In this document: in pieces, positions 6,746-34,132 of the stretch
How the letters are laid out: each line of letters begins with the position of its first letter
Position numbering within the stretch: position 1 is the first letter of the stretch
From: Minisyncoccia bacterium
GTDB taxonomy: Bacteria; Patescibacteriota; Minisyncoccia; Moranbacterales; GCA-2747515
Direction: 5' to 3'
Length of the DNA stretch: 64,000 bases
Assembly: GCA_041738235.1 (NCBI GenBank)
Contig: JBGSQF010000006.1
Coordinates: 18,261 to 82,260 of the forward strand
Notes under the pieces: model-generated
What the model was told of the DNA's origin: nothing
Seen by the model: only the letters and a program-made list of their open reading frames with translations
The model's database searches: none
Made by a program: the position numbers and the translations under genes

Positions 6746-6757
6746 ACCTACAGTATA

Positions 6758-8774: not shown

Positions 8775-8784
8775 ATAGTTCCTT

Positions 8785-10158: not shown

Positions 10159-10170
10159 AGTTTAACGTCC

Positions 10171-11394: not shown

Positions 11395-11403
11395 ATTTTT
11401 GTT

Positions 11404-13173: not shown

Positions 13174-13188
13174 GTCGGTTTATACAAT

Positions 13189-14214: not shown

Positions 14215-14232
14215 ACACCCCTAAGAGCAACT

Positions 14233-15540: not shown

Positions 15541-15626
15541 GCCTAAAGTATAGCACATTTTTTCAATTTTTGAAAAACAAAAGACCCGCAATGGAACTAT
15601 GCGGGTCTTTTTCCTTGAAAACTAGA

Positions 15627-17337: not shown

Positions 17338-20300
17338 TCACACCAGCCACTTCTTCACCAACAATCCACCTTTTTCCATAGTGATAGTGTCTTGAGCATC
17401 TCTGGATTCCCCTGTAGCAGGATTTTGGACAGAGACTTTAACAGTATATACTCCAGCCTCAAGAAAAATAAGATAGCGCCCATGTTCATCAGCCATAGTT
17501 CTTGAAAGCATGCGCTCGTTTTTATCAAATACCGAGATAGTGGTAAACACAAGTCCCTTTTGGGAAAATCTTTCCTTAGAAACTACTTCTCCCCACTGAC
17601 GACTCTTATTTGTAAACTGCCTCACAAAGAAGAGGGCAATGTTAAAGAGTAAAAGCACCCAATAGGCAAGGTTACCACGATCAATAATAACAGCATACAT
17701 GGTCCAGAAAAAACTCACCACAAAAACAATAAAGAAAAAGGAATTGAGCCATACAGAAACATTAAAGAAACCAAGAAAACTAGAGGACCTTCTGATATCC
17801 GGCTTTCTTACAAGTATATTACAACGAATAAACTCTTTATTGGTTACCACAATGGGATCTCCCCGGTAAATATTAGTAATAAAAATAGAAGAGTTCTGTG
17901 TTTCTTTTTCAAAGGTATACCCTTCCTTCTCTGCTTGGATGGTGTAGGTACCGGGATCGACCAGAAAGCCGAAGCGTCCGAGCCTATCGGAGATGATGAC
18001 CTGTTTCTTTTGGGTCTGTTGGTTGATGAGCGTTAACGTGACGTAAGAAAGGATATTGCCCGTATTGGCGTCATAGGTCGTTCCCCAGGATCGTTTTCGA
18101 CGAAAGAACCCAACGATCCCGAAAGCACTTACCATTTGTTGTGTCAAACCTCGCGCAGTTAAGAGCCCAGGAGAAAATACCGACCCAAAAGATCGAAACA
18201 ACGTAGCTATGACCGCTGCTAACGTCAGTGTCTCAGCCGAAGACTCAGGATCCTTCGCCATCTCCTTGACAGCTGCAATAGCAGAACTTCCCATATTATC
18301 AATAAACTCTGGAGTAACTGCTGTAACTGCATGTCCAAGAGTACGAAGTCCTTTTGCAACTACTTCCTCTTGTGTTTGCTTTTGAATTTCATCACTCTTT
18401 AAAACAAAGGTTTTTGTTTCTGACCCTTCCGATGTCATATTGTTCTCATCGGTATAGGTAACATAAATAGTATGAACTCCCTGCTCAATGTCCTTATCCT
18501 TCATAACATATTCAATACTCCAGTGAGTATCAGCGCGCCCCGTAAAGCTAAAAGGACTAGAAAAAATATAAGCGGTAAGCGACCCAGGACCATCGGCCAT
18601 CCCCTTAACAATAAGTGTAGAATCTTTTCTCTCTATAGAAGTAACAGTTGGTGGTTTAGGAATGACGGTAACATTGAGAGAAGCTGTTCTTTTGACAGAT
18701 GTTGCGCTTGTAACACTTGCTTCTACAACATGAAGACCAGTGGTAGGGAACCTATAAGCAAAAGAATTCTCTTTGGAAACCACAACACCATCGACCGCCC
18801 AGGCATATGTATACGTACCGCTTTTATCTGGAAAGACTTGAAAGGTCGCCTCTTGCCCCTTTTCAAGTCGTTCTCTTGACGATGAGGCAGAGACGGAGAA
18901 ATTCTCTTCCTCACTATCCTTTTCTGGTATTATAATACGCCTCCCATTAGAGAATGCGCTCCTCGTTGACCCCTTATAAGCTCTCACGCGATATGTATAA
19001 GTCGCTCCAGGAACAAGAGTTTCAGTATCAATATATAGGATCTTATTCTTTTTGACAGTGGCGATCTCCTTAAAAGCATCACTCCCCTGTCTTCGTTGAA
19101 TACTATAACCATTCTCTAAATCAGTGTTGTCTTGCCATACAAGTCGAATGCCCTTCTCAACCCGCCTAATCCTGAGATTGGTGGGGCGTTGCTCTTGATC
19201 AACAAGAGAGAGCGCTTTTCTATAGATAGTTCCCGCATCACCTGATTGATATCCATTTCCTCCATCAACATTCTTAGTTCCTGTAAAAGTGCTTCTGTTA
19301 TAGTAAAGTGCAATTCTTCCCCCGCCTCCACCACCACCATGCGATCCTCCAACACCTCCCCGAGCACTAATAGATCCGCTCCCAGCAAATAAATTAGCTT
19401 GAAGATGCACAGACCCACCGGAACCACCCCCAGCATAGTCTCCCTCTCCGTCACTCCCATCCGCCACAATACTTCCACCAAGACTTATAGGGCCTGTCAC
19501 CGCTATTTTGACGGCTCCTGCTCCCGATCCACTCAATTGTGCGTCTCCAGATCCCCCACTTGACCCAATATCTGTTGGTTGTGTATCCGAACCGTACGAA
19601 GATCCTCCAAAAGTAGATGAATGGTCACCCACACCCCCCCTTCCTCCGAATCCGCCTCCGCCACCGCCAAAACCCCTCCCGGGACCATTTCCTTCACCAA
19701 AAGAGGTGGAAGTTCCAATATATCCCTTCCCGCTTACATCTATCTTCCCTCCCACATTGATCACAAGCCTTGCAAGAGAAAGATTGATCCCCTTGGTTTG
19801 GTTAACAACGTTAGCTTGATGCGTAAGAGTACCCCCTTTCGCAACCCGCATAGAATTAAAAGAAACTGCTGGTCCCAAGATATCTTGATTCTGAAATTCC
19901 ATGATCCCAAGAACAATAATATCCTTAATAGGCTGAACATCTCCAATGGCAGGATTAACACCATTTTCATACCAGGTAACATTTGCAGAAATAGTTAATG
20001 TAGATTGATAATGGTTATAGATGCCATTGTTAGTGATACTTGCAGCAGTCAACAAGGAAAGTTTTTCTTTCACAGTGATTGTGTAATCGTGCGCGATGAC
20101 ATATCTAGCTGAACCACGAACAGTGAGATGATTAAATACTGACGATTCAACAATGGTCGTAGTGGATCCAGAAACAGCACCATTTCCAACAACAAGATCC
20201 CCATACGTAGCAGAATTTGATTTGATAAAAATAGTTCCAGCCCCCCCTCGCTGATAGCCCGCTCCGCCAAATGCAGTCCTTATTCCATTAAAAGTATCGT

Positions 20301-21192
20301 CATTCGCATAATAAATAGCCAACCTTCCACCACCTCCGCCACCCTCCTCAGTTCCTCCAGAAGCACCCCCGTCAACTCTAATATCACCACTGCCGGCAAG
20401 TGTGCCCACAGTAAGATAGATAGATCCTCCTGATCCGCCTCCAGCGTCACCACTTCCATCACTCCCCTTCGAATAAATATTTCCCTCTATAGTAAGTGTT
20501 CCGGAAACATTCAATCTTATGACACCACCACCAGACCCACCAATACCGCTATAAGCCCCTCCGCTCGATCCAATGTCCGTTGGCTGGGCAACAGAACCAT
20601 ACGTGACACCCCCAACCGCTTCAGATGCATTTCCTCCATTACCACCGAAACCAGCACCGGAACCGGTAGAAGACCCCTTTACTCCTTTTCCTGGTCCATT
20701 ACCATTATCGGCACTTGCCCCCGCATACCCCTTTCCCGTCACACTTACTGTTCCACCACTTCTTACCGTCATATCACCTCCCACCTCTAGAAAGAGAGAA
20801 TGGATATGTGTAGTAGTATTGGCTGTATGTGTAAGTATTCCCAACTCTCCGATAATGACATCATTCGTAACAATAAGCTTTTTCGTATCTACATCTCCAT
20901 TCTCGATGGTAAAAGTCGAAGTTGTATTCTCTCCAATTGAAAGCGACTGTATTGTTATGGGTCCACCAGAAAGATCGATCGTCGGTTGATTCGTGCCTCC
21001 GTCTATGACAACGTCATCACCACTTTGGGGAGTGGTTGAAGCACAACTGCTCCAGTTAGAAGAGTTGCTCCAGTCTGTAGAAGAAGATCCTGTCCAAGTA
21101 CAGGTACCTGCATAAACCGGAAGTGCGCCAGAAAAAACCCCAAACACACTGAGGTAAAAAAATATAAAAAGAAAGTTTTGTTTTTTCTGCAT
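17338..21192 (-). CDS. Giant (1284 aa) secreted/membrane-anchored surface protein: signal peptide, two tandem Gly-rich beta-solenoid-like modules, FN3/PKD-like region, TM helices flanked by carboxypeptidase-regulatory-like domains
   Basis: Signal peptide FLFIFFYLSVFGVFSGALPVYA. A duplicated module of about 200 aa (..GKGY.G..GNGPG.G....YGS..QPTDIGSSGG...GSDG.GD.GGGSGGS..L.....GSG.I...GG..GGGGGGR.A.YY..) occurs twice. TM cluster FFFIVFVVSFFWTMYAVII. Two CarbopepD_reg-like segments (GTYTIQAEKEGYTFEKE and GVYTVKVSVQNP). Confidence 0.6.
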   Translation of the reverse strand: MQKKQNFLFIFFYLSVFGVFSGALPVYAGTCTWTGSSSTDWSNSSNWSSCASTTPQSGDDVVIDGGTNQPTIDLSGGPITIQSLSIGENTTSTFTIENGDVDTKKLIVTNDVIIGELGILTHTANTTTHIHSLFLEVGGDMTVRSGGTVSVTGKGYAGASADNGNGPGKGVKGSSTGSGAGFGGNGGNASEAVGGVTYGSVAQPTDIGSSGGAYSGIGGSGGGVIRLNVSGTLTIEGNIYSKGSDGSGDAGGGSGGSIYLTVGTLAGSGDIRVDGGASGGTEEGGGGGGRLAIYYANDDTFNGIRTAFGGAGYQRGGAGTIFIKSNSATYGDLVVGNGAVSGSTTTIVESSVFNHLTVRGSARYVIAHDYTITVKEKLSLLTAASITNNGIYNHYQSTLTISANVTWYENGVNPAIGDVQPIKDIIVLGIMEFQNQDILGPAVSFNSMRVAKGGTLTHQANVVNQTKGINLSLARLVINVGGKIDVSGKGYIGTSTSFGEGNGPGRGFGGGGGGFGGRGGVGDHSSTFGGSSYGSDTQPTDIGSSGGSGDAQLSGSGAGAVKIAVTGPISLGGSIVADGSDGEGDYAGGGSGGSVHLQANLFAGSGSISARGGVGGSHGGGGGGGRIALYYNRSTFTGTKNVDGGNGYQSGDAGTIYRKALSLVDQEQRPTNLRIRRVEKGIRLVWQDNTDLENGYSIQRRQGSDAFKEIATVKKNKILYIDTETLVPGATYTYRVRAYKGSTRSAFSNGRRIIIPEKDSEEENFSVSASSSRERLEKGQEATFQVFPDKSGTYTYAWAVDGVVVSKENSFAYRFPTTGLHVVEASVTSATSVKRTASLNVTVIPKPPTVTSIERKDSTLIVKGMADGPGSLTAYIFSSPFSFTGRADTHWSIEYVMKDKDIEQGVHTIYVTYTDENNMTSEGSETKTFVLKSDEIQKQTQEEVVAKGLRTLGHAVTAVTPEFIDNMGSSAIAAVKEMAKDPESSAETLTLAAVIATLFRSFGSVFSPGLLTARGLTQQMVSAFGIVGFFRRKRSWGTTYDANTGNILSYVTLTLINQQTQKKQVIISDRLGRFGFLVDPGTYTIQAEKEGYTFEKETQNSSIFITNIYRGDPIVVTNKEFIRCNILVRKPDIRRSSSFLGFFNVSVWLNSFFFIVFVVSFFWTMYAVIIDRGNLAYWVLLLFNIALFFVRQFTNKSRQWGEVVSKERFSQKGLVFTTISVFDKNERMLSRTMADEHGRYLIFLEAGVYTVKVSVQNPATGESRDAQDTITMEKGGLLVKKWLV

Positions 21193-24576: not shown

Positions 24577-24855
24577 TTAACGCATTGTTTGGATCTTTTT
24601 TCGAAGATCTTTGTGCTCCTCCTCCTTCAAGCGCAGATCTTCTTCTGCTTTTCTTAACTTTCTTTCTAACTCCTCCTTCTCAGCATGTATGTCACGTTCC
24701 TTCTTGTCCACCATCCGCAACGCCATCCCAGCGTCGTCAACAGCTCTTTTAAGAGCAATAATATCAGATTGGAGTATCATCTCATCCCGCTCCATCTCAA
24801 TCTTCCGAATACGATCTTCTTGTTCGTCACCACTAGATCCTGTGTTGTAAGTCAT
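24577..24855 (-). CDS. Small (92 aa) charged coiled-coil protein
   Basis: ORF dominated by E/K/R heptads (ERKLRKAEEDLRLKEEEHKDLRKK); lies directly downstream of the ATPase gene. Confidence 0.35.
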   Translation of the reverse strand: MTYNTGSSGDEQEDRIRKIEMERDEMILQSDIIALKRAVDDAGMALRMVDKKERDIHAEKEELERKLRKAEEDLRLKEEEHKDLRKKIQTMR

Positions 24856-24899
24856 AGAGTAAAAATTAAAACGCTCTTTAAAATAACAAGAGACACGCC

Positions 24900-26810
24900 T
24901 CAGCTATCAGACTCTTCCCTTGAGGCCTTTTGTAACAGTGTCTTAACTGCATTGATATCGGGTTCTGAGCGCTTTCTCAGAGGTTTGAATCTCTTAGGGG
25001 CCACATGATGCATCTGGGAAAGACGCATAGGTTCATCACGCGTTATATATGCCACAGGCTCTACATTTTGCTCAAGTTTTACTGTTTCCTCACGAGATGA
25101 TTTTGCAATAACAACGTTCTCCACCGTTGTTTTGACCACACTCGATCCAGATGCAACTTGAGTCTTCGCCATCGTCCGCTGGTATTCCTTGAGACACTCT
25201 TTGCAAAAAGTTGGGCGACGCCCATCTGGCACGAATGGAAGTTGTATCTTCAGCCCACAAGTGTCACAAAATGCATCGTACAAAACCCTCTCCGACGTAC
25301 GTCCTTCTTTTTTTACCTCTTCTTTTGGTAGAGAAACGGATGTCGATGCCACAACATTTTTCGTTCCTCCAGGCACGTCTTTTTTGACCAACTTCCGTGG
25401 TTGAGCAATAGAACTCGAAATTCTTTCAACAGAAGCAACTTCTCGCCTCCTTGGCGACAAAGGGTTCTTATGATCAGCCAAAGAAGCTTCCCTGCTGGGT
25501 TCTTGGACTGTCTGTACTGGCGGAGCAAATACACCACTCCATTCTCTGATTCCCTCTTCTACATCTTCTTTTGAGTAAGAATAAGATTCACGAGAACTGC
25601 CTATAACATCCTCAGAAACATCCTGTACATTCTCTGTCTCGATCGGAGGCAAGGTTGTCGCACTAAAAGCATCTCCAGCAATACCATCAATCATGAGCTT
25701 TAGATAAATGTGGTACTTTGGCAGATTGACCACATCATTCATCATGAAAACCGGCTCGAATTCTTTCTCCAAAAATTCAGCATCCATGGCTCCAACACGA
25801 AACGCGATGAGCGTCCCTGCATTTCCAAAAATAGCATCCCGCACGATCTCATCGATCTGGGTCACATATTGATTTGCAAGAATAAGGTTCAGACGATACT
25901 TTCTCGCCTCAGAAAGAATGTTGGCAAATGATTCCGTGGCAAAGTTTTGAAACTCATCTACATAGAGGTAAAAATCATTTCGAACATTTTCAGGAATATC
26001 CACTCGAGCCATTGCCGCCATCTGTATCTTCGTGATCATCATAGCTCCTAAAAGAGCACTGTTATCTTCTCCGATCCGTCCCTTTGCAAGATTGAGTATC
26101 AAGATCTTTCTGTTATCCATCGCTTCACGGATATTAAAAGACGATTTTGTTTGTCCTACAATATTACGGATCAAGGAGGTAGAAAGGAATTGTCCTACCT
26201 TGTTCTGGATAGGCGAGATCACTTCCTGCAACACTCGGTCATTCCACTTTGAAAATTCATCTACCCAAAACGACTTAACAACGGGATCGGTAACGCAATT
26301 GACCACCTGTGCACGATATTTTTTATCCACCAAAATGCGCATGACTCCCAATAAGGTACTTCCTGGATATTCCAGCAAAGCAAGGATGGCATTGCGTAAA
26401 ATATATTCAAGTCGCGGTCCCCATGACTCAGCCCACAGTTTTTTAAATACTCCTATCAGTCCAGATGCTACCAAATGCCGATATTCCGGGGCTACCTGCT
26501 CCATCACATTGAAAGCGATCGGAAACGCCTGGTCTGCAGGATTAAAATAGATCACATCTTTTATTCGATCCGGTGGGATCATTCGTATAAGTTTCTCAGC
26601 CGTATCTCCGTGCGGGTCAACATATGCCACACCGTGTCCATTTTGAATATCCTGCAAAACCAAATGTTCCAAAAGATTGGTCTTTCCCATTCCAGTCTTT
26701 CCAATGATGTACATATGTCGCCTTCGATCATCCGTCTTGATACCAAAAATAGCCTCCTGTCCACGGAAGTTTGTTTTGGCAAAATACGTTATATCATGAG
26801 ATTGAGGCAT
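24900..26810 (-). CDS. Soluble TraD/VirD4-HerA-superfamily ATPase (type IV coupling-protein-like) with C-terminal CxxC..CxxC zinc ribbon
   Basis: HMYIIGKTGMGKTNLLEHL (Walker A) ... VAYVDPHGD (the DPxGD box of TraD/TrwB/HerA) ... FYLYVDEFQNF (Walker B) ... CDTCGLKIQLPFVPDGRRPTFCKEC. No N-terminal TM anchor. Confidence 0.6.
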   Translation of the reverse strand: MPQSHDITYFAKTNFRGQEAIFGIKTDDRRRHMYIIGKTGMGKTNLLEHLVLQDIQNGHGVAYVDPHGDTAEKLIRMIPPDRIKDVIYFNPADQAFPIAFNVMEQVAPEYRHLVASGLIGVFKKLWAESWGPRLEYILRNAILALLEYPGSTLLGVMRILVDKKYRAQVVNCVTDPVVKSFWVDEFSKWNDRVLQEVISPIQNKVGQFLSTSLIRNIVGQTKSSFNIREAMDNRKILILNLAKGRIGEDNSALLGAMMITKIQMAAMARVDIPENVRNDFYLYVDEFQNFATESFANILSEARKYRLNLILANQYVTQIDEIVRDAIFGNAGTLIAFRVGAMDAEFLEKEFEPVFMMNDVVNLPKYHIYLKLMIDGIAGDAFSATTLPPIETENVQDVSEDVIGSSRESYSYSKEDVEEGIREWSGVFAPPVQTVQEPSREASLADHKNPLSPRRREVASVERISSSIAQPRKLVKKDVPGGTKNVVASTSVSLPKEEVKKEGRTSERVLYDAFCDTCGLKIQLPFVPDGRRPTFCKECLKEYQRTMAKTQVASGSSVVKTTVENVVIAKSSREETVKLEQNVEPVAYITRDEPMRLSQMHHVAPKRFKPLRKRSEPDINAVKTLLQKASREESDS

Positions 26811-26849
26811 AGGCGTTTAGAAATATTTGAGATATTCAAATAAAAACCA

Positions 26850-28133
26850 CTATACGGGCAAATTTGCCGGAGCGCTACTTTTCTTAGCATCCACTCGTCT
26901 CAAATACGGAGACTGTACCACCATATCAGGCATATGAAAAACCGATGCAAGTTCCTTGGTACTTAAAATGAATGTTTTACCATCCGTATCCCGATCCTTA
27001 TATCGTCGAAAGATCTTCCGTTGTCGATACCGAAGACGCGTTTCCCGAGCAAAAAAGTTAGCAAATGTCTTTGATGTATTGTCTGGTTTAAAACTATTCA
27101 AGTTCATATCGGCAAATTGCTTGATACCTCCGATAAAAGACGAAACCACAGATTTATTAAACTGCTCTCTTCGCCCCAAATACACAAACCTCATTTTTGT
27201 TTTAAAGACATTTCTTCCGACATTCGCTTCCAAGGCCTCCAAGGCCTTCCTCTCTCCAGGAGTAAGCCTAAGATCAAGGGGATCCTCTCCCGCCTTCTCC
27301 TCCCCCTTCTTGGCCCACACCGGCTGTTGAAATAATGCTGGAATAATATTTTTTGCAAATTCCCCTACTCCACCAACTACACCTTCAATAACACTCACCT
27401 TCTTGACCTTTTTCTTTCGACCTGCAAGTTCTTCCACTAGTTCATGCCCCTCTTTGCTCCACGATTCATTCAAAGGAACAATCACGATCTGAAACCAAGT
27501 CTTTTGATCCATCCCCACTTTTCCAAGCGCTTCAATGAGTCCTGCCATAGGATCGATCATCTTTCCTGTAATATCCTCCTCAAAAAAATCATACGTCTTA
27601 ATTGGAAGCGGGTCTGGTCCCACAAGCTGCATATCGGTTCCCCATAGATCCCATTCTTTATTTGGCATCACACCGGGAACATCATAGATATAATCCTCTA
27701 CTTCTCGGATCTCTACGTCGGGATATTGAGCATACAAATGTGACTCGACAAGATTTCTATATGGCTTCGGCGTTCGAATATAAAGATGCACCACCCCCGA
27801 TTCACCCATCATTTCTAAACTAAATTTAGTGGTAAATTTCCCATCTATAAATTCTTCCAATACGTTGAATGTGGAAAGAATACCCGCCATTGCCGAGTAA
27901 AGAGACTCCATGATCTTTGGACTTTTTTCGAGATTTTGAGGAGGAAATATCTCAAGAAGAACATATTCTATCGTACCAGCATATTTTATCTGGATGTGGT
28001 CTACCCACAGCAGCAAAAATATCGGGTAGAACATGATCGGCAAAACAACATACCATACCAACGAGAAAAAGCGCCATGCCGAGGCGATATCCGCTCCCAT
28101 CCCTTGGAATGTTCCTAGGAGGAGTTCCATCAT
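26850..28133 (-). CDS. Membrane protein (2 N-terminal TM helices plus about 350-aa soluble domain), partner of the coupling-protein-like ATPase
   Basis: TM helices FFSLVWYVVLPIMFYPIFLLLWV. Sits immediately upstream of the ATPase on the same strand with a 40-nt gap. No known domain recognised. Confidence 0.45.
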   Translation of the reverse strand: MMELLLGTFQGMGADIASAWRFFSLVWYVVLPIMFYPIFLLLWVDHIQIKYAGTIEYVLLEIFPPQNLEKSPKIMESLYSAMAGILSTFNVLEEFIDGKFTTKFSLEMMGESGVVHLYIRTPKPYRNLVESHLYAQYPDVEIREVEDYIYDVPGVMPNKEWDLWGTDMQLVGPDPLPIKTYDFFEEDITGKMIDPMAGLIEALGKVGMDQKTWFQIVIVPLNESWSKEGHELVEELAGRKKKVKKVSVIEGVVGGVGEFAKNIIPALFQQPVWAKKGEEKAGEDPLDLRLTPGERKALEALEANVGRNVFKTKMRFVYLGRREQFNKSVVSSFIGGIKQFADMNLNSFKPDNTSKTFANFFARETRLRYRQRKIFRRYKDRDTDGKTFILSTKELASVFHMPDMVVQSPYLRRVDAKKSSAPANLPV

Positions 28134-28195
28134 TCTTATTTTATTTTTAAAATAATGATTCGATCATCATCCTTATGAATATGCCGTCGATCGAC

Positions 28196-29263
28196 CTACA
28201 AGGCTGAATTCGAATCTTTGTCAGGCAACGCATATGTATCCCTTCCAACCTTCCTAAAATGCATATTAAGATTGATAAGAATAGTGGTTGCTTTCACCTC
28301 TTTTTCTCTCAAAACCGAAGCATAGATCTCTTTTCGACTCATAGACTTTTTAGAAGCACGCAATACTTTCTCTATAGCATCACGAACCGTACCTCCTTCA
28401 TGTCCCCATTCACGCAAACCATAAACACCCCTACCTACCAAGGAAAAGATGGGATCCTTGATCAATTCGTTATGTGCCGTTTGCGGATTAGTTGGTTTAC
28501 GTCTCCCAAGACCATGTTCATCAATGTGGCGAGCGATGTCTCGGAAATGTAATGGCTTCTTTCCATATTTTAGCACAAGATATGCTTTATCGCGAGTACT
28601 CTTTGGATTCACCTCAGGCCAGTGTACCAATCCCCAATGACCGAAGGGATTTACTGCCAATTTTGCACTCGTTTGAAGATAAGATTCGAAGTGTGGTTTT
28701 TCCAAGGCATCGGGACGGATCGAGCGAAGAGCATCATACACTTCATCAAAAACGAAAGGACGTCCTTCTTTTTCAAATATAGCATGGATGACATTCAATA
28801 TCTGATCATACATTTCCATGTCAAAGTCCGACAAAAGCACCGATGGTCTAAACCGAGGATCTCGCTCAAGCACAGCGAATCGATCGGAGTAATCCAAAAA
28901 GAGATCTATTGCGCCCCTCTCAGCAAGGTCCTCCCCTGAAATAGTCTGATAAAGGTCCTGTTTTGCAGCGATCCCCCCTCGACTACGAAGAATGGACTCT
29001 AATGTCTCTATAGCAGCCTGAACCTCTTCCTTGCTTCGTGACCCAAAATCACGAAGAACTTGTTGGATGATCTGACGAATACGTTCACGAGTGATCCCAT
29101 ATCGCTCTCCGATAGATTCCAACGTCATCGGTTTTCCTTTTCCATAAATATCAAAACGACTTTTCACAATATCTTGTGTTCGTTTCGGAAAATTCTCCAA
29201 CTCCCTTTCCACGATTTCTCGAAAAGAAAATGGGCTTCTTCTGTTTAAAGCATCAAAAGACAT
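28196..29263 (-). CDS. DNA-binding protein with sigma-70 region-4-like HTH and C-terminal HARE-HTH-like winged helix
   Basis: TLESIGERYGITRERIRQI is a sigma r4 signature; the C-terminus has VGRGVYGLREWG, typical of HARE-HTH. Confidence 0.5.
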   Translation of the reverse strand: MSFDALNRRSPFSFREIVERELENFPKRTQDIVKSRFDIYGKGKPMTLESIGERYGITRERIRQIIQQVLRDFGSRSKEEVQAAIETLESILRSRGGIAAKQDLYQTISGEDLAERGAIDLFLDYSDRFAVLERDPRFRPSVLLSDFDMEMYDQILNVIHAIFEKEGRPFVFDEVYDALRSIRPDALEKPHFESYLQTSAKLAVNPFGHWGLVHWPEVNPKSTRDKAYLVLKYGKKPLHFRDIARHIDEHGLGRRKPTNPQTAHNELIKDPIFSLVGRGVYGLREWGHEGGTVRDAIEKVLRASKKSMSRKEIYASVLREKEVKATTILINLNMHFRKVGRDTYALPDKDSNSAL

Positions 29264-29424
29264 ATTTTTATCAGTAATACCAAAAATAAGATTTCAACCA
29301 ATACTAACACCGATAAGCATTTTTGTCAATAGCTAATTACGCTCACGGTCGTTACCGAAAAAAAAGACCAAAAAAAGAAGTTTATCCCTTATTTTTGGCC
29401 TTATAATAGCACACTCAGAAATGC

Positions 29425-30579
29425 CTATTCCGCCTTCTCATTGACCAACAACACTTTCACGTCTTTCTGAACTCCGTCACGGTAAATCGTAACCTTAATC
29501 TCAACCCCTGGCTTATATTGGGATACTATACGAGAAAGAGGCATGTCCAATGTAATTGGCACGTCATTTATAGATACAATAACATCACCTTGACGAATAC
29601 CAGCAAGATATGCCGGGGAGCCAAAAAGCACAACCGTTGCTGATGTTTCAGGTATCTTGACCCACGCGCCAGAGGAAATGGGAAGGTCATACATTGTAGC
29701 AAGCTCTGGAGTAAGAGAAACATAGGAAATTCCAAAAAGGGGCCGAGTTGGTTTCCCTTCTCCCTGATTCAAGAAAGCAAGCGCATCTGTCAAAGCACGA
29801 ATAGGCAAGATGATTGTCTGAGTCCGATCATTAGTTGTAAGTTCACGAACCATTCCTAACAATTCCCCCTGATATGTGATGACTGCCGATCCGTCTTGAG
29901 CATAATCTCCTGGCTCTATCTTTCCCACTCCTTCGTACTTCTCACTTGATCCAACCGACTGATCAGCAATATTGGTCGTCTTGGCCAATTCAGCCAAGGA
30001 AGAAGTTTGCGCTATAGGAGTGCTCCCCTCCAAGGACCGACTGATAAGTAACACATTCCTTCCTACAAAAAAAGCATCCTGTGGAGCAATGGTTGGGGTA
30101 GGCGCATTCTTCCTTTCGGTACGAAAAAATGTTGTTTCCGTAAATGGGTCTGAACCAATGAGCGTTGCATCGTTCGTCTCACCATTCATAGCAAAGACCT
30201 TATAAGTTGTCACCTTCCCAAAGGAGACCTCTTTAGTTGGAACAGCCACAACACCATCATTCGTAATAAAAAATCCAGAGGCCAGCGTGCTCGTGTCAGT
30301 TCCTAAGACGTTGGAAAGGGAGACGACTGTAACAACTGCATTCTGGGAATTGACTACGAGTTTTGAAACAAAATCACTTTCAGTGACCGTAACCTGGTCC
30401 TTTCTTTCTATGATCGTGACTTGGTCAGGGACATCGTGTTCCGATATCCATCGAAAATACTCTGGGTGCGAGTTACGAAATGGTTCAAAATAAGAATGGT
30501 ATAAGAAAACAGCAACAAAAACACTTGCAAAAAAGAATATGGTCCGAAATAGCCCTTGTATACCCCTTTTTATGTACAT
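29425..30579 (-). CDS. HtrA-like protein with PDZ domain but degenerate protease active site (likely inactive paralog)
   Basis: Trypsin-fold block SGFFITNDGVVAV lacks the catalytic His (the paralog has TNKHVV). AQDGSAVI replaces GNSGGPL. The PDZ domain is intact (GIRQGDVIVSINDVPI). Confidence 0.55.
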   Translation of the reverse strand: MYIKRGIQGLFRTIFFFASVFVAVFLYHSYFEPFRNSHPEYFRWISEHDVPDQVTIIERKDQVTVTESDFVSKLVVNSQNAVVTVVSLSNVLGTDTSTLASGFFITNDGVVAVPTKEVSFGKVTTYKVFAMNGETNDATLIGSDPFTETTFFRTERKNAPTPTIAPQDAFFVGRNVLLISRSLEGSTPIAQTSSLAELAKTTNIADQSVGSSEKYEGVGKIEPGDYAQDGSAVITYQGELLGMVRELTTNDRTQTIILPIRALTDALAFLNQGEGKPTRPLFGISYVSLTPELATMYDLPISSGAWVKIPETSATVVLFGSPAYLAGIRQGDVIVSINDVPITLDMPLSRIVSQYKPGVEIKVTIYRDGVQKDVKVLLVNEKAE

Positions 30580-30591
30580 ATGAAAGATTAT

Positions 30592-31365
30592 TTATTGTGT
30601 AAGGGTCCAGGGCGTGGTCAAAAGCACCATCGAGACTAAAACGATAAGCACTGTTACATCACCCCACGCACGCGAACGCGTGAATACTCCCTCCGTATAG
30701 CTGCTCAGAACGTCCCATAGAACATAATAGAGGATAAGGAGGATCACTCCTGTTGTCAAATACCCAAATGGCCAAAACTGCGTCATCCATCCTAACTCAA
30801 CAAAGAATATACCTACGGCCACACTATACATTTTAACATGGACGTTATCTCGAGCAATACCAGAGAGGTATTGATGTGTCAAAATATATGCACCAAACCC
30901 CATAAACCCCATAAATGACCAGATCGGGACAGAGTAATTAATGAGTATCCCGATCAAAACCGAGAAAAAAAGAAACACTGAAGCAATGGTAATAGCTGAT
31001 AAAATACTTTTTGTCATCCCCACAAGAGGTCCCTCATGCCAACGACGATACCCCCACAACATCCAAAAGAGAAGACTTCCCGATATCACCGAAAATATAT
31101 GCTGTCTCACCATATCATCTATAAACAAGAGAAGGGCCCAAGAAAATATTCCAAAAAAGAACAACAGAACATTACCTCGTGAAGACCCCCGAAAAACAAG
31201 TGGCCGAATGGAGACCAAAAGCATCAACAGTGCAACAAGTGAGAATATATACCATTCGGGAAAGAATACCGAAAACTCTAGTATTGCAAGAAAAAGACCA
31301 GATAATACAATAACCAATGGATGCATACGATAGTATAACGATAACCTTCCCGAAACCTGCACCAA
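30592..31365 (-). CDS. Polytopic membrane protein (about 8 TM helices) between the two HtrA paralogs
   Basis: 257 aa, hydrophobic throughout; function unknown. Confidence 0.45.
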   Translation of the reverse strand: MVQVSGRLSLYYRMHPLVIVLSGLFLAILEFSVFFPEWYIFSLVALLMLLVSIRPLVFRGSSRGNVLLFFFGIFSWALLLFIDDMVRQHIFSVISGSLLFWMLWGYRRWHEGPLVGMTKSILSAITIASVFLFFSVLIGILINYSVPIWSFMGFMGFGAYILTHQYLSGIARDNVHVKMYSVAVGIFFVELGWMTQFWPFGYLTTGVILLILYYVLWDVLSSYTEGVFTRSRAWGDVTVLIVLVSMVLLTTPWTLTQ

Positions 31366-31370
31366 TCCTT

Positions 31371-32654
31371 CTACTGAGATCTTTGTTCAAGTCGAACCTG
31401 AATATTTTTCTCACTATCTTTGTGCCATATCTTCAATTTCAATTCATCGCCAACGTGATATTTTGAAACAATGTGCGAGACATCATTATCTTGTGTCACT
31501 TTCTCCCCATTGATCTCCAAGATAATATCATTTTCAACTATACCCACCTTATCAGCTGGGGATCCAGGGATAACAGCAAGATCAGTTCTTGCATCCCCCC
31601 GCAACACCAATGCGCCATAGTCATATTTAAGATTATTCTGGCTCTGAATATCTTTATTTAAGATAATGTATCGAACACCCAGGAATGGAACAGATATTTT
31701 TCCCGTTTCTTTTACTTGATTGATCGTGTCCTTCAGAGCGTTTATAGGAAGGGCAAACCCAACATTCTGGGCACCCTGTGCAACGGCCGTATTAATACCG
31801 ATCACTCGACCACTTATATCAAGCAATGGGCCACCGGAATTCCCAGGATTAATAGCTGCATCCGTCTGAATAATGTCATCCAACTGTTCCGACTGGCCAA
31901 ATCCCGATCCCGCAACAATATCCCGCCCAAGTCCAGATACAATCCCTCGACTGACAGAGTTACTAAACTCTCCCAAGGAGTTCCCAATCGCAATAACTGT
32001 TTGCCCCACCTCTAGCGAACCAGAATCCCCCAAGTCCAAAACTGGAAAATCTTTTCCTTCGATCTTCACGACAGCAACATCTCGCATGGGATCACGCGCC
32101 AAAACAGTCGCTGAATGTTCTGTCCCATCCTGTGTGATAACCGTATATTCTGCACTAGTATCACTTACTACGTGTTTATTTGTGACAATGGTCCCATCAG
32201 AACTCACAAAGAATCCGGTACCCCCTCCCACTTGTTGTTTTTCTGTACCTTGTGACGGGTTGGGAGAAGAGTAAGGATCAAAGAAAAAACCAAATGGATC
32301 GCCCCGATAAATTGGAACGTCTTTCTTCACGATCACGCTCACAACCGCAGGCGTGGCCTTTTTTACAACAGAGATCGTTGCGCTTTGTTCCTCCACATCA
32401 TTAGTAGCTACCGTCTGACCATTCGGGGTACTCTTCTCACTACTGTGTACACCCGCCAACCCGCCAAAGAGCTGCTCAACTCCAGAAACATTCCCCAAAC
32501 GTCCGACAATAAAAATAACGAGTGCGGTTCCCACTATCCCACCGAGTATACCCAATACGAAAGAGGTAACCTTATTTCTTTCTATTTTATCCTTTTTAAG
32601 TTCTTTGTTCTGCTCTGTTGATGATGGCTCCATTTGTATGTTATTCGTTTCCAT
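31371..32654 (-). CDS. htrA: HtrA/DegP-family serine protease with PDZ domain
   Basis: GTGFFVSSDGTIVTNKHVV (His), DVAVVKI (Asp), AINPGNSGGPLLD (Ser); C-terminal PDZ; N-terminal TM anchor. Confidence 0.8.
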   Translation of the reverse strand: METNNIQMEPSSTEQNKELKKDKIERNKVTSFVLGILGGIVGTALVIFIVGRLGNVSGVEQLFGGLAGVHSSEKSTPNGQTVATNDVEEQSATISVVKKATPAVVSVIVKKDVPIYRGDPFGFFFDPYSSPNPSQGTEKQQVGGGTGFFVSSDGTIVTNKHVVSDTSAEYTVITQDGTEHSATVLARDPMRDVAVVKIEGKDFPVLDLGDSGSLEVGQTVIAIGNSLGEFSNSVSRGIVSGLGRDIVAGSGFGQSEQLDDIIQTDAAINPGNSGGPLLDISGRVIGINTAVAQGAQNVGFALPINALKDTINQVKETGKISVPFLGVRYIILNKDIQSQNNLKYDYGALVLRGDARTDLAVIPGSPADKVGIVENDIILEINGEKVTQDNDVSHIVSKYHVGDELKLKIWHKDSEKNIQVRLEQRSQ

Positions 32655-32665
32655 ACTTAGAGATA

Positions 32666-33718
32666 TTACTTATTTGATAGAGGGTCCTCCGCTTGAATAA
32701 ATCCATTTTCTTGTTCAAAAGCGGCCATGGTTGGATTTGTAAATTCTACATACCCCGTTTCAGCATTCCACTCATATTCCGGCAATAATACCCAAACGGT
32801 CGACCCTCGAATACTATTACCGATCCAGTCGGCGAACGTTTCTTTGCGAGTCATGATCTGACTTATTCGATAGAGTATCACACCCGCTTCCTTTCGAGTC
32901 TCATTTAATTGAACAATATGGTATCCGAGCGATGTTTCAGTAATATCACTCATTTCACCAACCGAAAGTTTTTCGATCGCATCAGCAAGTGCCGGCTCAG
33001 CCTGACTGATATCGATCCAACCGATCTCACCCCCGTCCCCCACAGTGGATCCTTCAGAGTACTGCTTCGCTACATCAGGAAAAACTTCCCCAGAATTGAG
33101 ACGGCCCTGAGCCTCCTGGATCTTTTTAAGCGCCTGAACATCTTGTGATCTATCCTGACGCGCTTCAAAGATTGCGGATAACTTCTCTTTATAAAGGTCG
33201 GGCACAACCACCTCCTTTTTAAAATCAGCGAGATCCCAACCATAAAGACGGCTTAAATCATCCATCACGCGTTCCTCAGAACTGAACTCATGCATTTTTC
33301 TTTCTACACTTTGGTCCGCCTCTAAGGAGGTAACACGCACCCCTGCTTTTTCGGCCAAATACTTGACCATCTGATCCTCAATATATTTATTCAACAACCC
33401 TCGCTCTCGCACCTGCAACCTTTTTTTTCCTTCTTCAGTAGTAAAATCCACACGCATCCCAACCGAAGAGAAGTCCTGCTTCTCATAAAACTGGCGCAGT
33501 GACTGCAATTTCCATTGCAATTCCGCTGCTGTAAGAACCGAAAATGGTTTCCACGTGATCAACACGGGAAGATGAAAGGTATGTGCTGCTCCCTGTGCCC
33601 ATGAACTTGTGGCGTATCGAGCATACACAGCAACCAGAAAGGCCATCGCTACACACACTAAGATAATACTTGATCCAATAAATATTACCTTCTTAGAAAA
33701 CATTTTTTCTTTTTTCAT
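32666..33718 (-). CDS. PrsA/SurA-like peptidyl-prolyl isomerase (parvulin domain), membrane-anchored
   Basis: N-terminal TM; the parvulin block GDGGEIGWIDISQAEPALADAIEKLSVGEMSDITETSLGYHIV. Confidence 0.65.
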   Translation of the reverse strand: MKKEKMFSKKVIFIGSSIILVCVAMAFLVAVYARYATSSWAQGAAHTFHLPVLITWKPFSVLTAAELQWKLQSLRQFYEKQDFSSVGMRVDFTTEEGKKRLQVRERGLLNKYIEDQMVKYLAEKAGVRVTSLEADQSVERKMHEFSSEERVMDDLSRLYGWDLADFKKEVVVPDLYKEKLSAIFEARQDRSQDVQALKKIQEAQGRLNSGEVFPDVAKQYSEGSTVGDGGEIGWIDISQAEPALADAIEKLSVGEMSDITETSLGYHIVQLNETRKEAGVILYRISQIMTRKETFADWIGNSIRGSTVWVLLPEYEWNAETGYVEFTNPTMAAFEQENGFIQAEDPLSNK

Positions 33719-33727
33719 ACATTACTT

Positions 33728-34132
33728 TTATTTGGGGCCAAAAAAGAAACTCCACCATTTTTTCGGATTTGAGATACTACTATTTATCACTATACGAACT
33801 TCACGTTTTGGCTGAGGATCTTCCACTTGTGTTGACTCCTGTTGAAATCGGTCCGGCTGTACGACTGCTACGCTTTCCCCCGGTTTTTTAAGATTGAGTT
33901 TATCTTTCGCCTCACGCTCAACATATTCCGGAGTACGAAGATAGGCAATACGATCATTCAGTTTCTGTGTTTCTTCCTCGATCTTTTGAGCCTCTTCTTG
34001 AAGTTTTAATACGTCTTCCGAAATTTTTTCTTTCTCTCGATACTTCTCATATCCCCTCCAAGAAATGACAACTGCAATACCTAATATCACCACTGATATT
34101 AATAATATTAAAAATATGCGTGATGATTTCAT
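33728..34132 (-). CDS. FtsB/DivIC-like septum-formation initiator
   Basis: TM, then coiled coil, then the conserved YLRTPEYVEREAKDKLNLKKPGE motif. Confidence 0.6.
   Translation of the reverse strand: MKSSRIFLILLISVVILGIAVVISWRGYEKYREKEKISEDVLKLQEEAQKIEEETQKLNDRIAYLRTPEYVEREAKDKLNLKKPGESVAVVQPDRFQQESTQVEDPQPKREVRIVINSSISNPKKWWSFFFGPK

What the first reader, a model, noticed from the sequence alone, without database searches (positions are those of the whole stretch)
24577..29263. Orphan coupling-protein-like ATPase module: soluble TraD/VirD4-HerA-type ATPase with C-terminal zinc ribbon, a large membrane partner, a sigma-r4/HARE-HTH protein and a small coiled-coil protein
The 636-aa protein has the Walker A, DPxGD and Walker B arrangement of TraD/TrwB/VirD4 coupling proteins (FtsK-HerA superfamily) but lacks their N-terminal transmembrane anchor. 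Instead, the gene just upstream encodes a 427-aa protein with two N-terminal TM helices. That looks like a split coupling protein. The ATPase also ends in a CxxC-(20)-CxxC zinc ribbon that classical T4CPs do not have. A dedicated DNA-binding protein with a sigma-70 region-4 HTH and a HARE-type winged helix, plus a 92-aa coiled-coil protein, complete the block. No relaxase, VirB4 or other T4SS or conjugation gene lies anywhere in the 64 kb. So this is not a conventional conjugative element. It could be a DNA-translocation motor working with the type IV pilus 11 kb away, a defence system, or a remnant of one. I cannot assign it to any described system from the sequence alone.
Basis: partly seen in the sequence, partly recalled or inferred. 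Interest (0 to 1): 0.65.

Follow-up and report, generated by a model that had tools for sequence, protein, structure and literature searches.

The report
Split type IV coupling protein operon
This is a three-gene operon conserved across Patescibacteria (ultra-small CPR bacteria) that encodes a conjugation-type "coupling" ATPase split into a membrane anchor and a soluble motor, plus a DNA-binding partner; it is a candidate for the substrate receptor missing from these bacteria's type IV secretion system.

Summary
The four ORFs and their motifs are real, but the module is not an orphan. The window is a housekeeping stretch of a Candidatus Moranbacteria (Patescibacteria) chromosome.

Three genes form a strongly conserved operon in the order HTH, DUF8128, ATPase. 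The HTH gene lies directly upstream in 72 of 77 related loci. The ATPase lies directly downstream in 66 of 68. At least 590 species carry the module.

- **ATPase:** a TrwB/VirD4-type coupling protein core with no transmembrane (TM) segment.
- **Split gene:** actinobacterial conjugation loci encode 812–819-aa coupling proteins in which a DUF8128-like N-terminal half joins the ATPase seamlessly.
- **HTH protein:** a sigma region-4 domain followed by about four predicted winged helices.
- **92-aa gene:** only loosely syntenic, not core.

I found no support for defence, phage or plasmid carriage, or type IV pilus linkage. The most likely role is a trans-encoded substrate receptor and motor for the Patescibacteria type IV secretion system. 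That role is inferred, not shown.

The parts
29301..29329 (-). Promoter-like site TTGACA-17-TAGTAT (with TG) in the 161-nt gap upstream of the HTH gene; possible operon promoter
   Evidence: sequence seen. This is a consensus match only. The number of such sites in the region is no higher than in shuffles.
28196..29263 (-). Gene 1: 355-aa multi-HTH DNA-binding protein (sigma-70 region 4 plus about four tandem predicted winged helices, one of them HARE-HTH)
29048..29224 (-). Sigma region-4 domain (aa 14-72), including the invariant T58-R-E-R-x-R-Q64 stretch
   Evidence: That this stretch matches the -35-recognition helix of sigma-70 is from my own knowledge; it was not tested here.
28406..28597 (-). 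HARE-HTH winged helix (aa 223-286), the most conserved part of the protein
26850..28133 (-). Gene 2: 427-aa DUF8128 (PF26449) membrane anchor with a VirB4-N-terminal-domain-like / EccE-like cytoplasmic domain
27993..28070 (-). Single TM segment of DUF8128 (aa 22-47)
26853..26885 (-). Extreme C-terminal short motif KKSSAPANLPV, of the form basic-basic-x-[A/P]PxxLP[V/I/F]. In the fused actinobacterial proteins this segment is the linker into the ATPase domain, so it is the predicted docking peptide.
   Evidence: Invariant A421, P422, N424, L425, P426. Kept at the very C-terminus, and sometimes duplicated, in long variants. Unique to DUF8128 among the ORFs of the loci. Aligns to residues 333-392 of the Embleya T4CP.
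24900..26810 (-). Gene 3: 636-aa soluble VirD4/TrwB-type ATPase (T4CP core, aa 1 to about 425), then a disordered linker, a treble-clef Zn finger and a basic tail
   Evidence: hhalign against TrwB: 96% probability, E 2e-9, TrwB residues 111-393. Against VirB4 only the P-loop aligns. Directly downstream of DUF8128 in 66 of 68 loci.
26679..26702 (-). Walker A GKTGMGKT (aa 37-44)
25953..25970 (-). Walker B YLYVDE (aa 281-286)
25185..25289 (-). CxxC-x17-CxxC treble-clef zinc finger (Pfam zf_Tbcl_2 / TIGR04272, aa 508-542)
   Evidence: A CxxC-x15-22-CxxC motif is present in 111 of the 120 closest homologues.
24936..25031 (-). Conserved basic motif in the C-terminal tail of the ATPase (aa 594-625); candidate partner- or nucleic-acid-binding peptide
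   Evidence: Conservation in alignment A2, sequence. The function is inferred.
24577..24855 (-). 92-aa highly charged, probably coiled-coil protein; loosely syntenic and not a core member
   Evidence: Homologues of 85-114 aa occur in 16 other loci, always downstream on the same strand. In the loci where I checked the order it follows MnmA, and in L002 it precedes AlaRS. It was not found in the more distant loci.

Best explanation
The locus encodes a chromosomal, vertically inherited, three-component type IV coupling protein (T4CP) complex typical of Patescibacteria.

**Shown**
- The ATPase is a TrwB/VirD4-family core without a TM domain.
- DUF8128 is a single-pass membrane protein. Its soluble domain is predicted to have the fold seen in VirB4 (TrwK), and more weakly in EccE.
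- The two genes together are co-linear with single-chain T4CPs of 812-819 aa in actinobacterial conjugation loci. The pair is therefore a split T4CP.
- A sigma-region-4 / multi-winged-helix protein is encoded immediately upstream in most genomes.

**Inferred**
- DUF8128 tethers a hexameric ATPase to the cytoplasmic face of the membrane.
- Its conserved C-terminal PPxNLP tail, which is the inter-domain linker in the fused proteins, docks on the N-terminus of the ATPase.
- The multi-HTH protein binds DNA, possibly -35-like TTGACA sites. It presents DNA or a nucleoprotein to the motor, much as relaxosome accessory proteins do for TraD and TrwB. The Zn finger and basic tail of the ATPase would serve as extra contacts.
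- The most likely channel is the monoderm-type type IV secretion system that about 80% of Patescibacteria encode elsewhere. That system has no coupling protein of its own in most loci: only 148 of 5,713 T4CP homologues lie near virB4.

The module would then be the trans-encoded substrate receptor and motor of that T4SS, working without a relaxase.
For: - **T4CP identity of the ATPase.** Pfam hits are above gathering score. The nearest PDB sequences are TrwB and DotL. The profile alignment to TrwB has 96% probability, runs from just after its TM domain and spans Walker A to Walker B.
- **Split-gene evidence.** A DUF8128 HMM scores 25.5, 21.0 and 19.2 bits on three actinobacterial T4CPs, in two co-linear segments that end at residue 392-402. 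ATPase residue 6 aligns to residue 398 of the Embleya protein. Controls were 900 shuffles (maximum 1.4 bits) and 4316 unrelated ORFs (maximum 9.8 bits).
- **Context of the fused gene.** In Embleya it sits between a PrgI/VirB3-like gene, a VirB4-like ATPase (E 3e-6 against TrwK) and a replication-relaxation gene.
- **Operon conservation.** 72 of 77 and 66 of 68 loci, with median gaps of 57 and 34 nt.
- **Core-genome context.** The recurrent neighbours are SecDF, MnmA, AlaRS, HtrA and DnaX.
- **Literature.** 5,713 T4CP homologues in 2,918 of 3,035 Patescibacteria genomes, only 148 near virB4. VirB4 is present in 2,417 genomes. Only 109 relaxases were found (PMC12102498). The S. epibionticum T4SS lacks a recognisable coupling protein (PMC10633639).
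Against: - No T4SS gene is linked to the trio in the window or in the 83 related loci, so the partnership with the T4SS rests on homology and on literature counts.
- PMC12102498 reports that the T4CP homologue of S. epibionticum is not essential although the T4SS is. I could not check whether that homologue belongs to this DUF8128-linked family.
- T4CP homologues occur in more genomes (96%) than VirB4 (80%).
- No relaxase is present, so the substrate and its processing are unknown.
- The DUF8128-VirB4 similarity is structural only. hhalign finds nothing, and the DUF8128 model is of moderate confidence (pLDDT 74).
- No complex prediction or experiment was possible. Hexamer formation, docking through the tail and DNA binding are all inferences.
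Confidence: 0.5

Rival explanations
1. The module is a T4SS-independent DNA pump. In this reading the split T4CP has been exapted as a stand-alone membrane DNA translocase. It could act like FtsK or Streptomyces TraB, with TM anchor, motor and winged-helix DNA reader on three chains. It could instead be the cytoplasmic motor for DNA uptake through ComEC, like the VirD4-like CedD that is essential for DNA import in Sulfolobus.
For: - T4CP homologues are more widespread than VirB4, and one is dispensable where the T4SS is essential (PMC12102498).
- CedD is a trans-encoded VirD4-like ATPase used for import, and some of its orthologues lack a TM segment (PMC11823120).
- TdtA of Thermus is an ATPase involved in DNA donation in a transformation-dependent conjugation process (abstract of PMC5365140).
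- ComEC lies within 7 kb in 5 loci and DprA-TopA in 4 loci.
- In Minisyncoccus archaeiphilus a pilin-like gene is inserted inside the operon.
- The partner protein is built of winged helices, as is the gamma domain of FtsK.
Against: - The ComEC and DprA neighbours each come from loci with adjacent similarity ranks and near-identical gene spacing, so they are probably one lineage each and reflect inherited synteny.
- Prepilin-like ORFs are otherwise absent from the loci.
- The closest fused relatives sit in conjugative T4SS loci.
- No FtsK_SpoIIIE Pfam match was found.
- FtsK is mentioned in a transcriptome study of the Saccharibacterium TM7x (search listing only).
- A comEC deletion in S. epibionticum abolishes competence but not viability, as reviewed in PMC12857230. 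That says nothing for or against this module.
Confidence: 0.27
2. The module is a transcription- or RNA-polymerase-associated machine. The partner protein combines a sigma region-4 domain, which in sigma factors binds the beta-flap and the -35 element, with a HARE-HTH like that of RNAP subunit delta. It could therefore bind RNA polymerase or promoters. The ATPase would then remodel or membrane-tether transcription complexes. Alternatively the HTH protein is simply the operon's regulator.
For: - Sigma70_r4 and HARE-HTH Pfam hits, and NCBIfam similarity to RpoD C-terminal regions and to RNAP delta (32.4 bits).
- The invariant TRERxRQ stretch.
- A TTGACA promoter-like site upstream of the operon.
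- SecDF lies immediately upstream on the same strand in 29 loci.
Against: - There is no sigma region 2.
- The delta model scores below its cut-off of 42 bits.
- No known RNAP remodeller is a T4CP-family ATPase with a membrane anchor.
- The pair DUF8128 plus ATPase persists without the HTH gene in 3 loci (L061, L062, L082).
- A five-domain protein conserved in thousands of genomes is more than a simple autoregulator.
Confidence: 0.08
3. The module is an anti-phage defence system built around a soluble T4CP/HerA-like ATPase, related to MADS, whose mad8 profile matches the ATPase.
For: PADLOC mad8 hit: E 2.8e-19, 68 bits, aa 13-369. The sigma-r4 region weakly matches MzaA.
Against: - DUF8128 has no PADLOC hit, and no other MADS or MZA component is present.
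- The sampled loci each carry a single copy.
- The core is 60-80% identical across an order.
- The position among housekeeping genes is fixed.
- The family is absent from the plasmid collection and essentially absent from viral contigs.
- None of this fits the patchy, mobile distribution typical of defence islands.
Confidence: 0.03
4. The genes are a decaying remnant of an integrated conjugative element.
For: The ATPase family and the fused homologues come from conjugative elements. No relaxase or mating-pair genes are nearby.
Against: - All catalytic motifs are invariant, with about 200 invariant columns in the ATPase core.
- The gene order is conserved in at least 590 species.
- GC content and GC skew match the surrounding chromosome.
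- No integrase, repeats or tRNA-flanked island were seen.
Confidence: 0.02

Closest known systems
Fused actinobacterial conjugative T4CPs (Embleya sp. NBC_00896 plasmid NZ_CP108778.1, WP_331738717.1, 812 aa; also Embleya NBC_00888 and Streptomyces sp. BHT-5-2)
   Same: They have the same domain order: one N-terminal TM, a DUF8128-like domain with the DPLxxLL...Q..QI..P and ELAxLxHLP...PPxxIP motifs, then a T4CP ATPase 30% identical to the window's (E 2e-56). The junction falls exactly where the window's two genes are split.
   Different: They are a single polypeptide. They have no zinc finger or long tail, judged from length and alignment extent. They are encoded inside a T4SS locus with PrgI, a VirB4-like gene, a replication-relaxation gene and NlpC/P60 on linear plasmids. 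No sigma-r4/HARE partner was seen next to them.
TrwB / VirD4 / TraD / DotL coupling proteins of diderm T4SSs
   Same: They share a homologous nucleotide-binding core, with an insert at the position of the all-alpha domain. The Walker A, DPxGD and Walker B order is the same, and the TraG-D_C region is present.
   Different: They carry their own two-helix N-terminal TM domain and no VirB4-NTD-like domain. They are linked to a relaxase and mating-pair genes, and they lack the CxxC-x17-CxxC finger.
VirB4 (TrwK) N-terminal domain; TrsD of pGO1-type systems; EccE of type VII secretion
   Different: There is no detectable sequence similarity to TrwK. DUF8128 pairs with a VirD4-type ATPase, not a VirB4-type one. 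Its relation to TrsD was not tested because I had no TrsD sequence.
CedD (Sulfolobus) and TdtA (Thermus)
   Same: CedD is a VirD4-like ATPase encoded away from the other genes of its channel, and it moves DNA without a relaxase. It imports DNA, and some orthologues lack a TM segment (PMC11823120). TdtA is an ATPase involved in DNA donation (PMC5365140).
   Different: Only the P-loop region matches the CedD model (NCBIfam 27 bits against a cut-off of 600). Neither has a DUF8128 or sigma-r4/HARE partner, and they occur in different lineages.
FtsK / SpoIIIE / Streptomyces TraB
   Same: This is an analogy in parts: a membrane anchor, a hexameric HerA/FtsK-superfamily motor and a winged-helix DNA reader.
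   Different: There is no FtsK_SpoIIIE domain match. The parts lie on three proteins, and the ATPase is of the T4CP clade.
mad8 of the MADS defence system
   Same: It gives the best single profile score for the ATPase core (68 bits). Mad8 is therefore presumably also a T4CP-like ATPase; I did not check this.
   Different: None of the other MADS genes is present, and the genomic behaviour is that of a core gene.

Membership tests
Type IV coupling proteins (VirD4/TrwB/TraD, Pfam TrwB_AAD_bind / T4SS-DNA_transf / TraG-D_C) | Nucleotide-binding domain homologous to TrwB, with Walker A and Walker B | tested here: met
   Pfam 46.6 bits against a cut-off of 20.5, and TraG-D_C 27.8 against 22. TrwB and DotL are the top PDB sequence hits. 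hhalign 96%, E 2e-9 over 268 columns. Motifs.
Type IV coupling proteins (VirD4/TrwB/TraD, Pfam TrwB_AAD_bind / T4SS-DNA_transf / TraG-D_C) | All-alpha domain inserted in the nucleotide-binding domain | tested here: inconclusive
   The profile alignment runs through the TrwB all-alpha region with low per-column confidence, and a conserved insert of about 110 aa lies at that position.
Type IV coupling proteins (VirD4/TrwB/TraD, Pfam TrwB_AAD_bind / T4SS-DNA_transf / TraG-D_C) | N-terminal transmembrane domain on the same polypeptide | tested here: not met
   There is no hydrophobic segment in the ATPase, and homology to TrwB starts at TrwB residue 111. A TM is supplied in trans by DUF8128. The fused actinobacterial homologues show the two genes are one T4CP split in two.
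Type IV coupling proteins (VirD4/TrwB/TraD, Pfam TrwB_AAD_bind / T4SS-DNA_transf / TraG-D_C) | Genetic linkage to a relaxase and/or mating-pair-formation genes | tested here: not met
   None in the 64-kb window among the ORFs scanned, and none among the recurrent neighbours in 83 loci. The literature reports the same for most Patescibacteria T4CP homologues.
Type IV coupling proteins (VirD4/TrwB/TraD, Pfam TrwB_AAD_bind / T4SS-DNA_transf / TraG-D_C) | Couples a substrate to a T4SS channel | not testable with these tools
   Needs genetics or biochemistry.
VirB4 ATPases | VirB4-type N-terminal domain | tested here: met
VirB4 ATPases | VirB4-type C-terminal ATPase domain on the same chain | tested here: not met
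   The ATPase profile against TrwK aligns only the P-loop, at 5.6% probability. VirB4 models score far below their cut-offs.
Pfam DUF8128 (PF26449) | Match to the family model | tested here: met
   The precomputed Pfam label is carried by every close homologue, including one 95% identical, and by the neighbours of ATPase homologues. The local Pfam copy gave no hit for this protein.
FtsK/SpoIIIE DNA translocases | FtsK_SpoIIIE motor domain | tested here: not met
   Absent from the Pfam hits at E up to 0.1.
Sigma-70 family sigma factors | Region 2 (binds core RNAP and the -10 element) together with region 4 | tested here: not met
   Only Sigma70_r4 is found. The full-length sigma models of NCBIfam score 20-54 bits against cut-offs of 240-800. 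The AF2 model shows winged helices after region 4.
RNA polymerase delta subunit (RpoE) | Match to the delta model | tested here: not met
   A HARE-HTH is present, but TIGR04567 scores 32.4 bits against a cut-off of 42. From my own knowledge, delta is a single HARE-HTH domain followed by an acidic tail. This protein has five DNA-binding-type domains and ends ...PDKDSNSAL.
MADS defence system | mad8-like ATPase together with the other mad genes | tested here: not met
   The mad8 profile is hit (E 2.8e-19), but the other three proteins match no MADS component.

The most novel reading that the evidence does not exclude
Nearly all Patescibacteria would carry a relaxase-independent DNA or nucleoprotein transfer route, directed by sequence recognition. 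In this reading a split VirD4-type motor is anchored by a VirB4-NTD-like protein and guided by a sigma-region-4 / winged-helix adaptor that reads -35-like sites. The motor would feed chromosomal DNA, or import host DNA, through the T4SS that is essential in S. epibionticum. DNA exchange with the host would then be a core, phylum-wide function rather than a trait of mobile elements.
Probability: 0.15. Interest if true: 0.85.

Novelty: new variant of a known kind. Interest (0 to 1): 0.6.

Why it matters
Patescibacteria are one of the largest bacterial radiations. In the one species tested (S. epibionticum), the type IV secretion system is essential for epibiotic growth. Neither its substrate nor its coupling protein is known.

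The analysis yields a concrete three-protein candidate for the missing substrate-recognition module. It makes three testable predictions:
- the C-terminal tail of DUF8128 docks on the ATPase;
- the DUF8128 soluble domain resembles the VirB4 N-terminal domain, so it could slot into the inner-membrane complex;
- the HTH protein binds DNA.

It also assigns a probable role and ancestry to a Pfam domain of unknown function, as the N-terminal half of an extended monoderm T4CP. It links the CPR proteins to cultivable Actinobacteria, where the fused form could be studied.

If the module instead works without the T4SS, it would be a new kind of housekeeping DNA translocase.

Tried and rejected
- **hhalign of the DUF8128 profile against TrwK/VirB4** found nothing. 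The similarity is structural only.
- **hhalign of the HTH profile against the Embleya replication-relaxation protein** found nothing.
- **The DUF8128 profile against the 708-aa Bradyrhizobium T4CP-like protein** found nothing. That protein has a different N-terminus and sits among CHAT/TPR genes.
- **PDB sequence search with the DUF8128 profile** gave no hit.
- **A Pfam scan of ten long DUF8128 variants** found no extra domain. The extensions are disordered linkers with a second tail motif.
- **The afdb50 fold library** was unavailable.
- **Extending the view beyond the window** to look for a T4SS on the same contig failed. Exact-protein look-ups either found nothing or found only a 3.5-kb contig.
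- **Type IV pilus linkage** was rejected.
- **Phage or plasmid carriage** was rejected.
- **Defence** was rejected.
- **Literature.** A search for DUF8128 returned no paper. Papers on Minisyncoccus and on S. epibionticum do not discuss this module.
- **An effector that targets host RNA polymerase.** I considered this for the HTH protein and rejected it. The protein keeps its sigma region 4 in Minisyncoccus archaeiphilus, which parasitises an archaeon, and archaea have no sigma factors.

Full report
**Observation.** The four ORFs exist as described, all on the minus strand with gaps of 39-62 nt between them. The 636-aa protein carries Walker A (G37KTGMGKT), D65PHGD and Walker B (Y281LYVDE). It passes the Pfam gathering scores of TrwB_AAD_bind, TraG-D_C, DUF87 and zf_Tbcl_2. 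It has no hydrophobic segment. The 355-aa protein has Sigma70_r4 and HARE-HTH.

Three details need correcting:
- The 427-aa protein has one hydrophobic stretch (aa 22-47), modelled as a single long helix. It does not have two TM helices.
- The zinc motif is CxxC-x17-CxxC at aa 515-539. About 97 residues follow it, including a second conserved motif.
- The 92-aa gene is not a constant neighbour.

**Context.** Names attached to homologues place the window in Candidatus Moranbacteria (Patescibacteria/CPR). The window is ordinary chromosome. It carries FtsQ, HolB, tRNA clusters, a type IV pilus operon, L10, CysRS, DnaB, RecR, S2, RF1, PrmC, RmuC, PurC and MnmA. GC content is uniform and GC skew is uniformly negative, except for a GC rise at the far end of the window. 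None of the 38 ORFs of at least 150 aa that I scanned is an integrase, relaxase or T4SS gene.

**Conservation.**
The best 120 hits are 57-80% identical, and all carry the T4CP domain plus the zinc finger.
- The 427-aa partner is Pfam PF26449 (DUF8128). A profile search of 1.84 billion representatives found 2989 clusters, 936 of them at E ≤ 1e-30.
- The HTH protein has 4327 homologues with the same two-domain signature.
One is the cultured Minisyncoccus archaeiphilus.
- In the 83 fetched loci the order is HTH, DUF8128, ATPase on one strand. The HTH gene is directly upstream in 72 of 77 assessable loci (median gap 57 nt). The ATPase is directly downstream in 66 of 68 (median gap 34 nt, some overlapping).
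- The pair DUF8128 plus ATPase persists without the HTH gene in L061, L062 and L082.
- Recurrent flanking genes are housekeeping. SecD-SecF lies immediately upstream in 29 loci, MnmA downstream in 25, and AlaRS in 16. HtrA, PpiC, DnaX, DivIC and EF-P also recur.

**The ATPase.**
- Its nearest solved relatives by sequence are TrwB and DotL.
- A profile of 30 homologues aligns to TrwB with 96% probability (E 2e-9, 268 columns). The alignment starts at TrwB residue 111, just after its TM domain, and runs through the all-alpha-domain position to Walker B.
- Against VirB4/TrwK only the P-loop aligns.
- The protein is therefore a VirD4-type core without an anchor.
- The core (aa 1 to about 425) is very strongly conserved, with about 200 invariant columns among 30 sequences.

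**DUF8128.**
- AlphaFold2 (pLDDT 74) gives an N-terminal TM helix, a mixed alpha/beta domain and a disordered tail.
- Foldseek's 14 significant hits are all TrwK chains.
- No TrwB, FtsK or HerA fold appears in either list, and DUF8128 has no Walker motif. I therefore infer that the match is to the non-ATPase N-terminal domain of VirB4.
- There is no sequence-level signal to TrwK.
- The extreme C-terminus carries a short motif of the form basic-basic-x-[A/P]PxxLP[V/I/F]. It is invariant in close homologues and present in nearly all representatives.
- In long variants the motif stays at the very end, after a disordered insert of 100-250 residues, and 24 of 141 carry a second copy.

**The split.** A tblastn search of the ATPase against plasmids found 440 records.
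- In Embleya sp. NBC_00896 the match (30% identity, E 2e-56) is the C-terminal half of an 812-aa protein annotated [quoted passage not shown].
- That gene lies between a PrgI-family gene, a VirB4-like ATPase (E 3e-6 against TrwK), a replication-relaxation gene and an NlpC/P60 hydrolase.
- A broad DUF8128 HMM hits the N-terminal halves of this protein and of two relatives (Embleya NBC_00888 and Streptomyces BHT-5-2) at 25.5, 19.2 and 21.0 bits.
- The hits fall in two co-linear segments. The first is DPLxxLL...Q...QI...P. The second is ELAxLxHLP...APGLxRAGARSVxPPxxIP. The second ends at residue 392 of the Embleya NBC_00896 protein.
- ATPase residue 6 aligns to residue 398 of that protein. The end of DUF8128 and the start of the ATPase therefore abut with no gap.
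- Controls: 900 shuffled sequences reached at most 1.4 bits, and 4316 unrelated ORFs at most 9.8 bits.
- hhalign gives a weak but co-linear alignment.
- The two CPR genes are thus the two halves of an extended monoderm-type T4CP, and the DUF8128 tail corresponds to its inter-domain linker.
- The direction of the event, fission or fusion, is unknown.

**The HTH protein.**
- AlphaFold2 (pLDDT 91) shows a sigma region-4 domain (aa 14-72) followed by about four winged-helix-like modules. The third is the HARE-HTH.
- The stretch T58-R-E-R-x-R-Q64 is invariant. From my own knowledge it matches the -35-recognition helix of sigma-70, so binding of TTGACA-like DNA is a reasonable but untested inference.
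- There is no region 2, so the protein is not a sigma factor. The delta model scores below its cut-off.

**The 92-aa protein.** An iterated profile finds homologues of 85-114 aa in 16 other loci. They are always downstream on the same strand. In the loci where I checked the order the gene follows MnmA, and in L002 it precedes AlaRS. None was found in the more distant loci. It is a syntenic neighbour, not a demonstrated component.

**Rivals tested.**
- **Mobile element or phage:** DUF8128 is absent from 72,556 plasmids and has one partial hit in 2.9 million viral contigs.
- **Defence:** only the ATPase matches a PADLOC model (mad8), with no other component.
- **Type IV pilus or competence:** one locus has a prepilin-like ORF. 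M. archaeiphilus has a 1164-aa pilin-like gene inserted between DUF8128 and the ATPase. ComEC and DprA-TopA are near the trio in 5 and 4 loci, each set probably one lineage. These are leads, not evidence.

**Literature.**
- PMC12102498 reports 5,713 VirD4-type homologues in 2,918 of 3,035 Patescibacteria genomes, only 148 of them near virB4. VirB4 is present in 2,417 genomes, and 109 relaxases were found. The authors raise possible exaptation, because the homologue in S. epibionticum is not essential.
- Wang et al. (PMC10633639) note that the S. epibionticum T4SS has no recognisable coupling protein or relaxase.
- I found no paper that mentions DUF8128, the split, the VirB4-like fold or the sigma-r4/HARE partner.
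- CedD (PMC11823120) is a precedent for a VirD4-like ATPase acting in DNA import away from its channel genes. TdtA (PMC5365140) is a precedent for an ATPase in relaxase-free DNA donation.

**Mechanism.** What is shown is the homology, the domain architecture, the split and the operon conservation.

What is inferred:
- DUF8128 holds a VirD4-type hexamer at the membrane through its tail and its VirB4-NTD-like domain.
- The HTH protein supplies nucleic-acid recognition.
- The complex serves as the trans-encoded receptor and motor of the monoderm-type T4SS of these bacteria.

I give this about 0.5. A T4SS-independent DNA translocase, for uptake, segregation or donation, gets about 0.27. The remaining rivals are minor.

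**Novelty.** The family is a member of a known kind (T4CPs), and its abundance in the phylum is published. The split architecture, the nature of the N-terminal half and the dedicated partner appear to be undescribed. I therefore rate it a new variant of a known kind.

Noticed in passing
L072 8438-11932 (Minisyncoccus archaeiphilus PMX.108 chromosome): A 1164-aa protein with a prepilin N-methylation motif and a Gly_rich_2 domain is inserted between DUF8128 and the ATPase. This is one of only two loci in which the ATPase is not directly downstream of DUF8128 (the other is L076).
   Followed up: partly
L086 8983-10170 (Sulfitobacter mediterraneus plasmid NZ_CP081110.1): A 395-aa soluble T4CP-like ATPase is 42.5% identical to the CPR ATPase core (E 7e-94). 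That is far closer than any classical T4CP. It sits alone among transposase and recombinase genes with no DUF8128 gene. The result suggests a wider clade of anchor-less T4CP-like ATPases, or horizontal transfer.
   Followed up: partly
L062 5154-11690 (contig titled Candidatus Binatia, 65% GC): The gene order is the same as in CPR (SecF, a 201-aa ORF with no Pfam hit, DUF8128, ATPase, HtrA-like), but the contig is high in GC and lacks the sigma-r4/HARE gene. It is either a mis-binned high-GC Patescibacterium or a lineage outside CPR.
   Followed up: partly
Loci L029-L083, immediately upstream of the HTH gene: SecD and SecF lie directly upstream on the same strand in 29 loci, with a gap of about 57 nt in the locus I checked (L039). 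In those genomes the trio may be co-transcribed with secDF. In the window this linkage is broken.
   Followed up: partly
L038, L039, L043, L051, L056 (ComEC); L016, L019, L023, L027 (DprA-TopA): Competence genes lie within 7 kb of the trio in two small groups of loci. Each group probably reflects inherited synteny within one lineage rather than independent linkage.
   Followed up: partly
P0376, P0372, P0343, P0326, P0307 (DUF8128 representatives of 547-691 aa): Long variants insert a disordered, Pro/Glu/Gln-rich linker of 100-250 residues after the domain. They repeat the PPxxLP motif so that one copy stays at the extreme C-terminus.
   Followed up: yes
window 5654-15591: A type IV pilus operon: PilM, a 480-aa ORF with no Pfam hit, a 212-aa ORF with no Pfam hit, a CarboxypepD_reg-domain protein, PilC and PilB. 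A histidine kinase and an SLT-type transglycosylase follow it.
   Followed up: partly
window 17338-21192: A 1284-aa glycine-rich repetitive protein with an N-terminal signal-like segment, PKD and CarboxypepD_reg domains and hydrophobic C-terminal segments. It is probably a surface or adhesion protein.
   Followed up: no
window 29425-34132 compared with L001 8215-11818: The gene set DivIC, PpiC rotamase, DUF5656 and HtrA/PDZ protease lies upstream of the trio in the window. In another Moranbacterium it lies downstream of the ATPase. This indicates a local rearrangement around a fixed trio.
   Followed up: partly
window 60000-63000: GC content rises to 0.50-0.52 against about 0.42 elsewhere, over the TrxB-like, PurC (SAICAR synthetase) and MnmA genes. 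Rfam finds no rRNA there. Several long antisense ORFs overlap these genes.
   Followed up: no
window 56238-58634, 53171-55818: A 798-aa ORF and three ORFs of 201-259 aa have no Pfam match at E ≤ 1e-4.
   Followed up: no
Record titles of L008, L010-L012, L018, L031, L064, L081, L082 and others: Contigs with typical CPR gene order and low GC carry titles such as uncultured Bdellovibrionales, Gammaproteobacteria, Bathyarchaeia or Acutalibacteraceae. These are probably wrong taxonomic labels from automated binning pipelines.
   Followed up: no
L088 6026-8152 (Bradyrhizobium sp. 131 plasmid): A 708-aa T4CP-like protein (31% identity to the ATPase core) has an N-terminal half unrelated to DUF8128. 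CHAT-domain and TPR proteins flank it. This is a different context, possibly a conflict system, for the same ATPase clade.
   Followed up: partly
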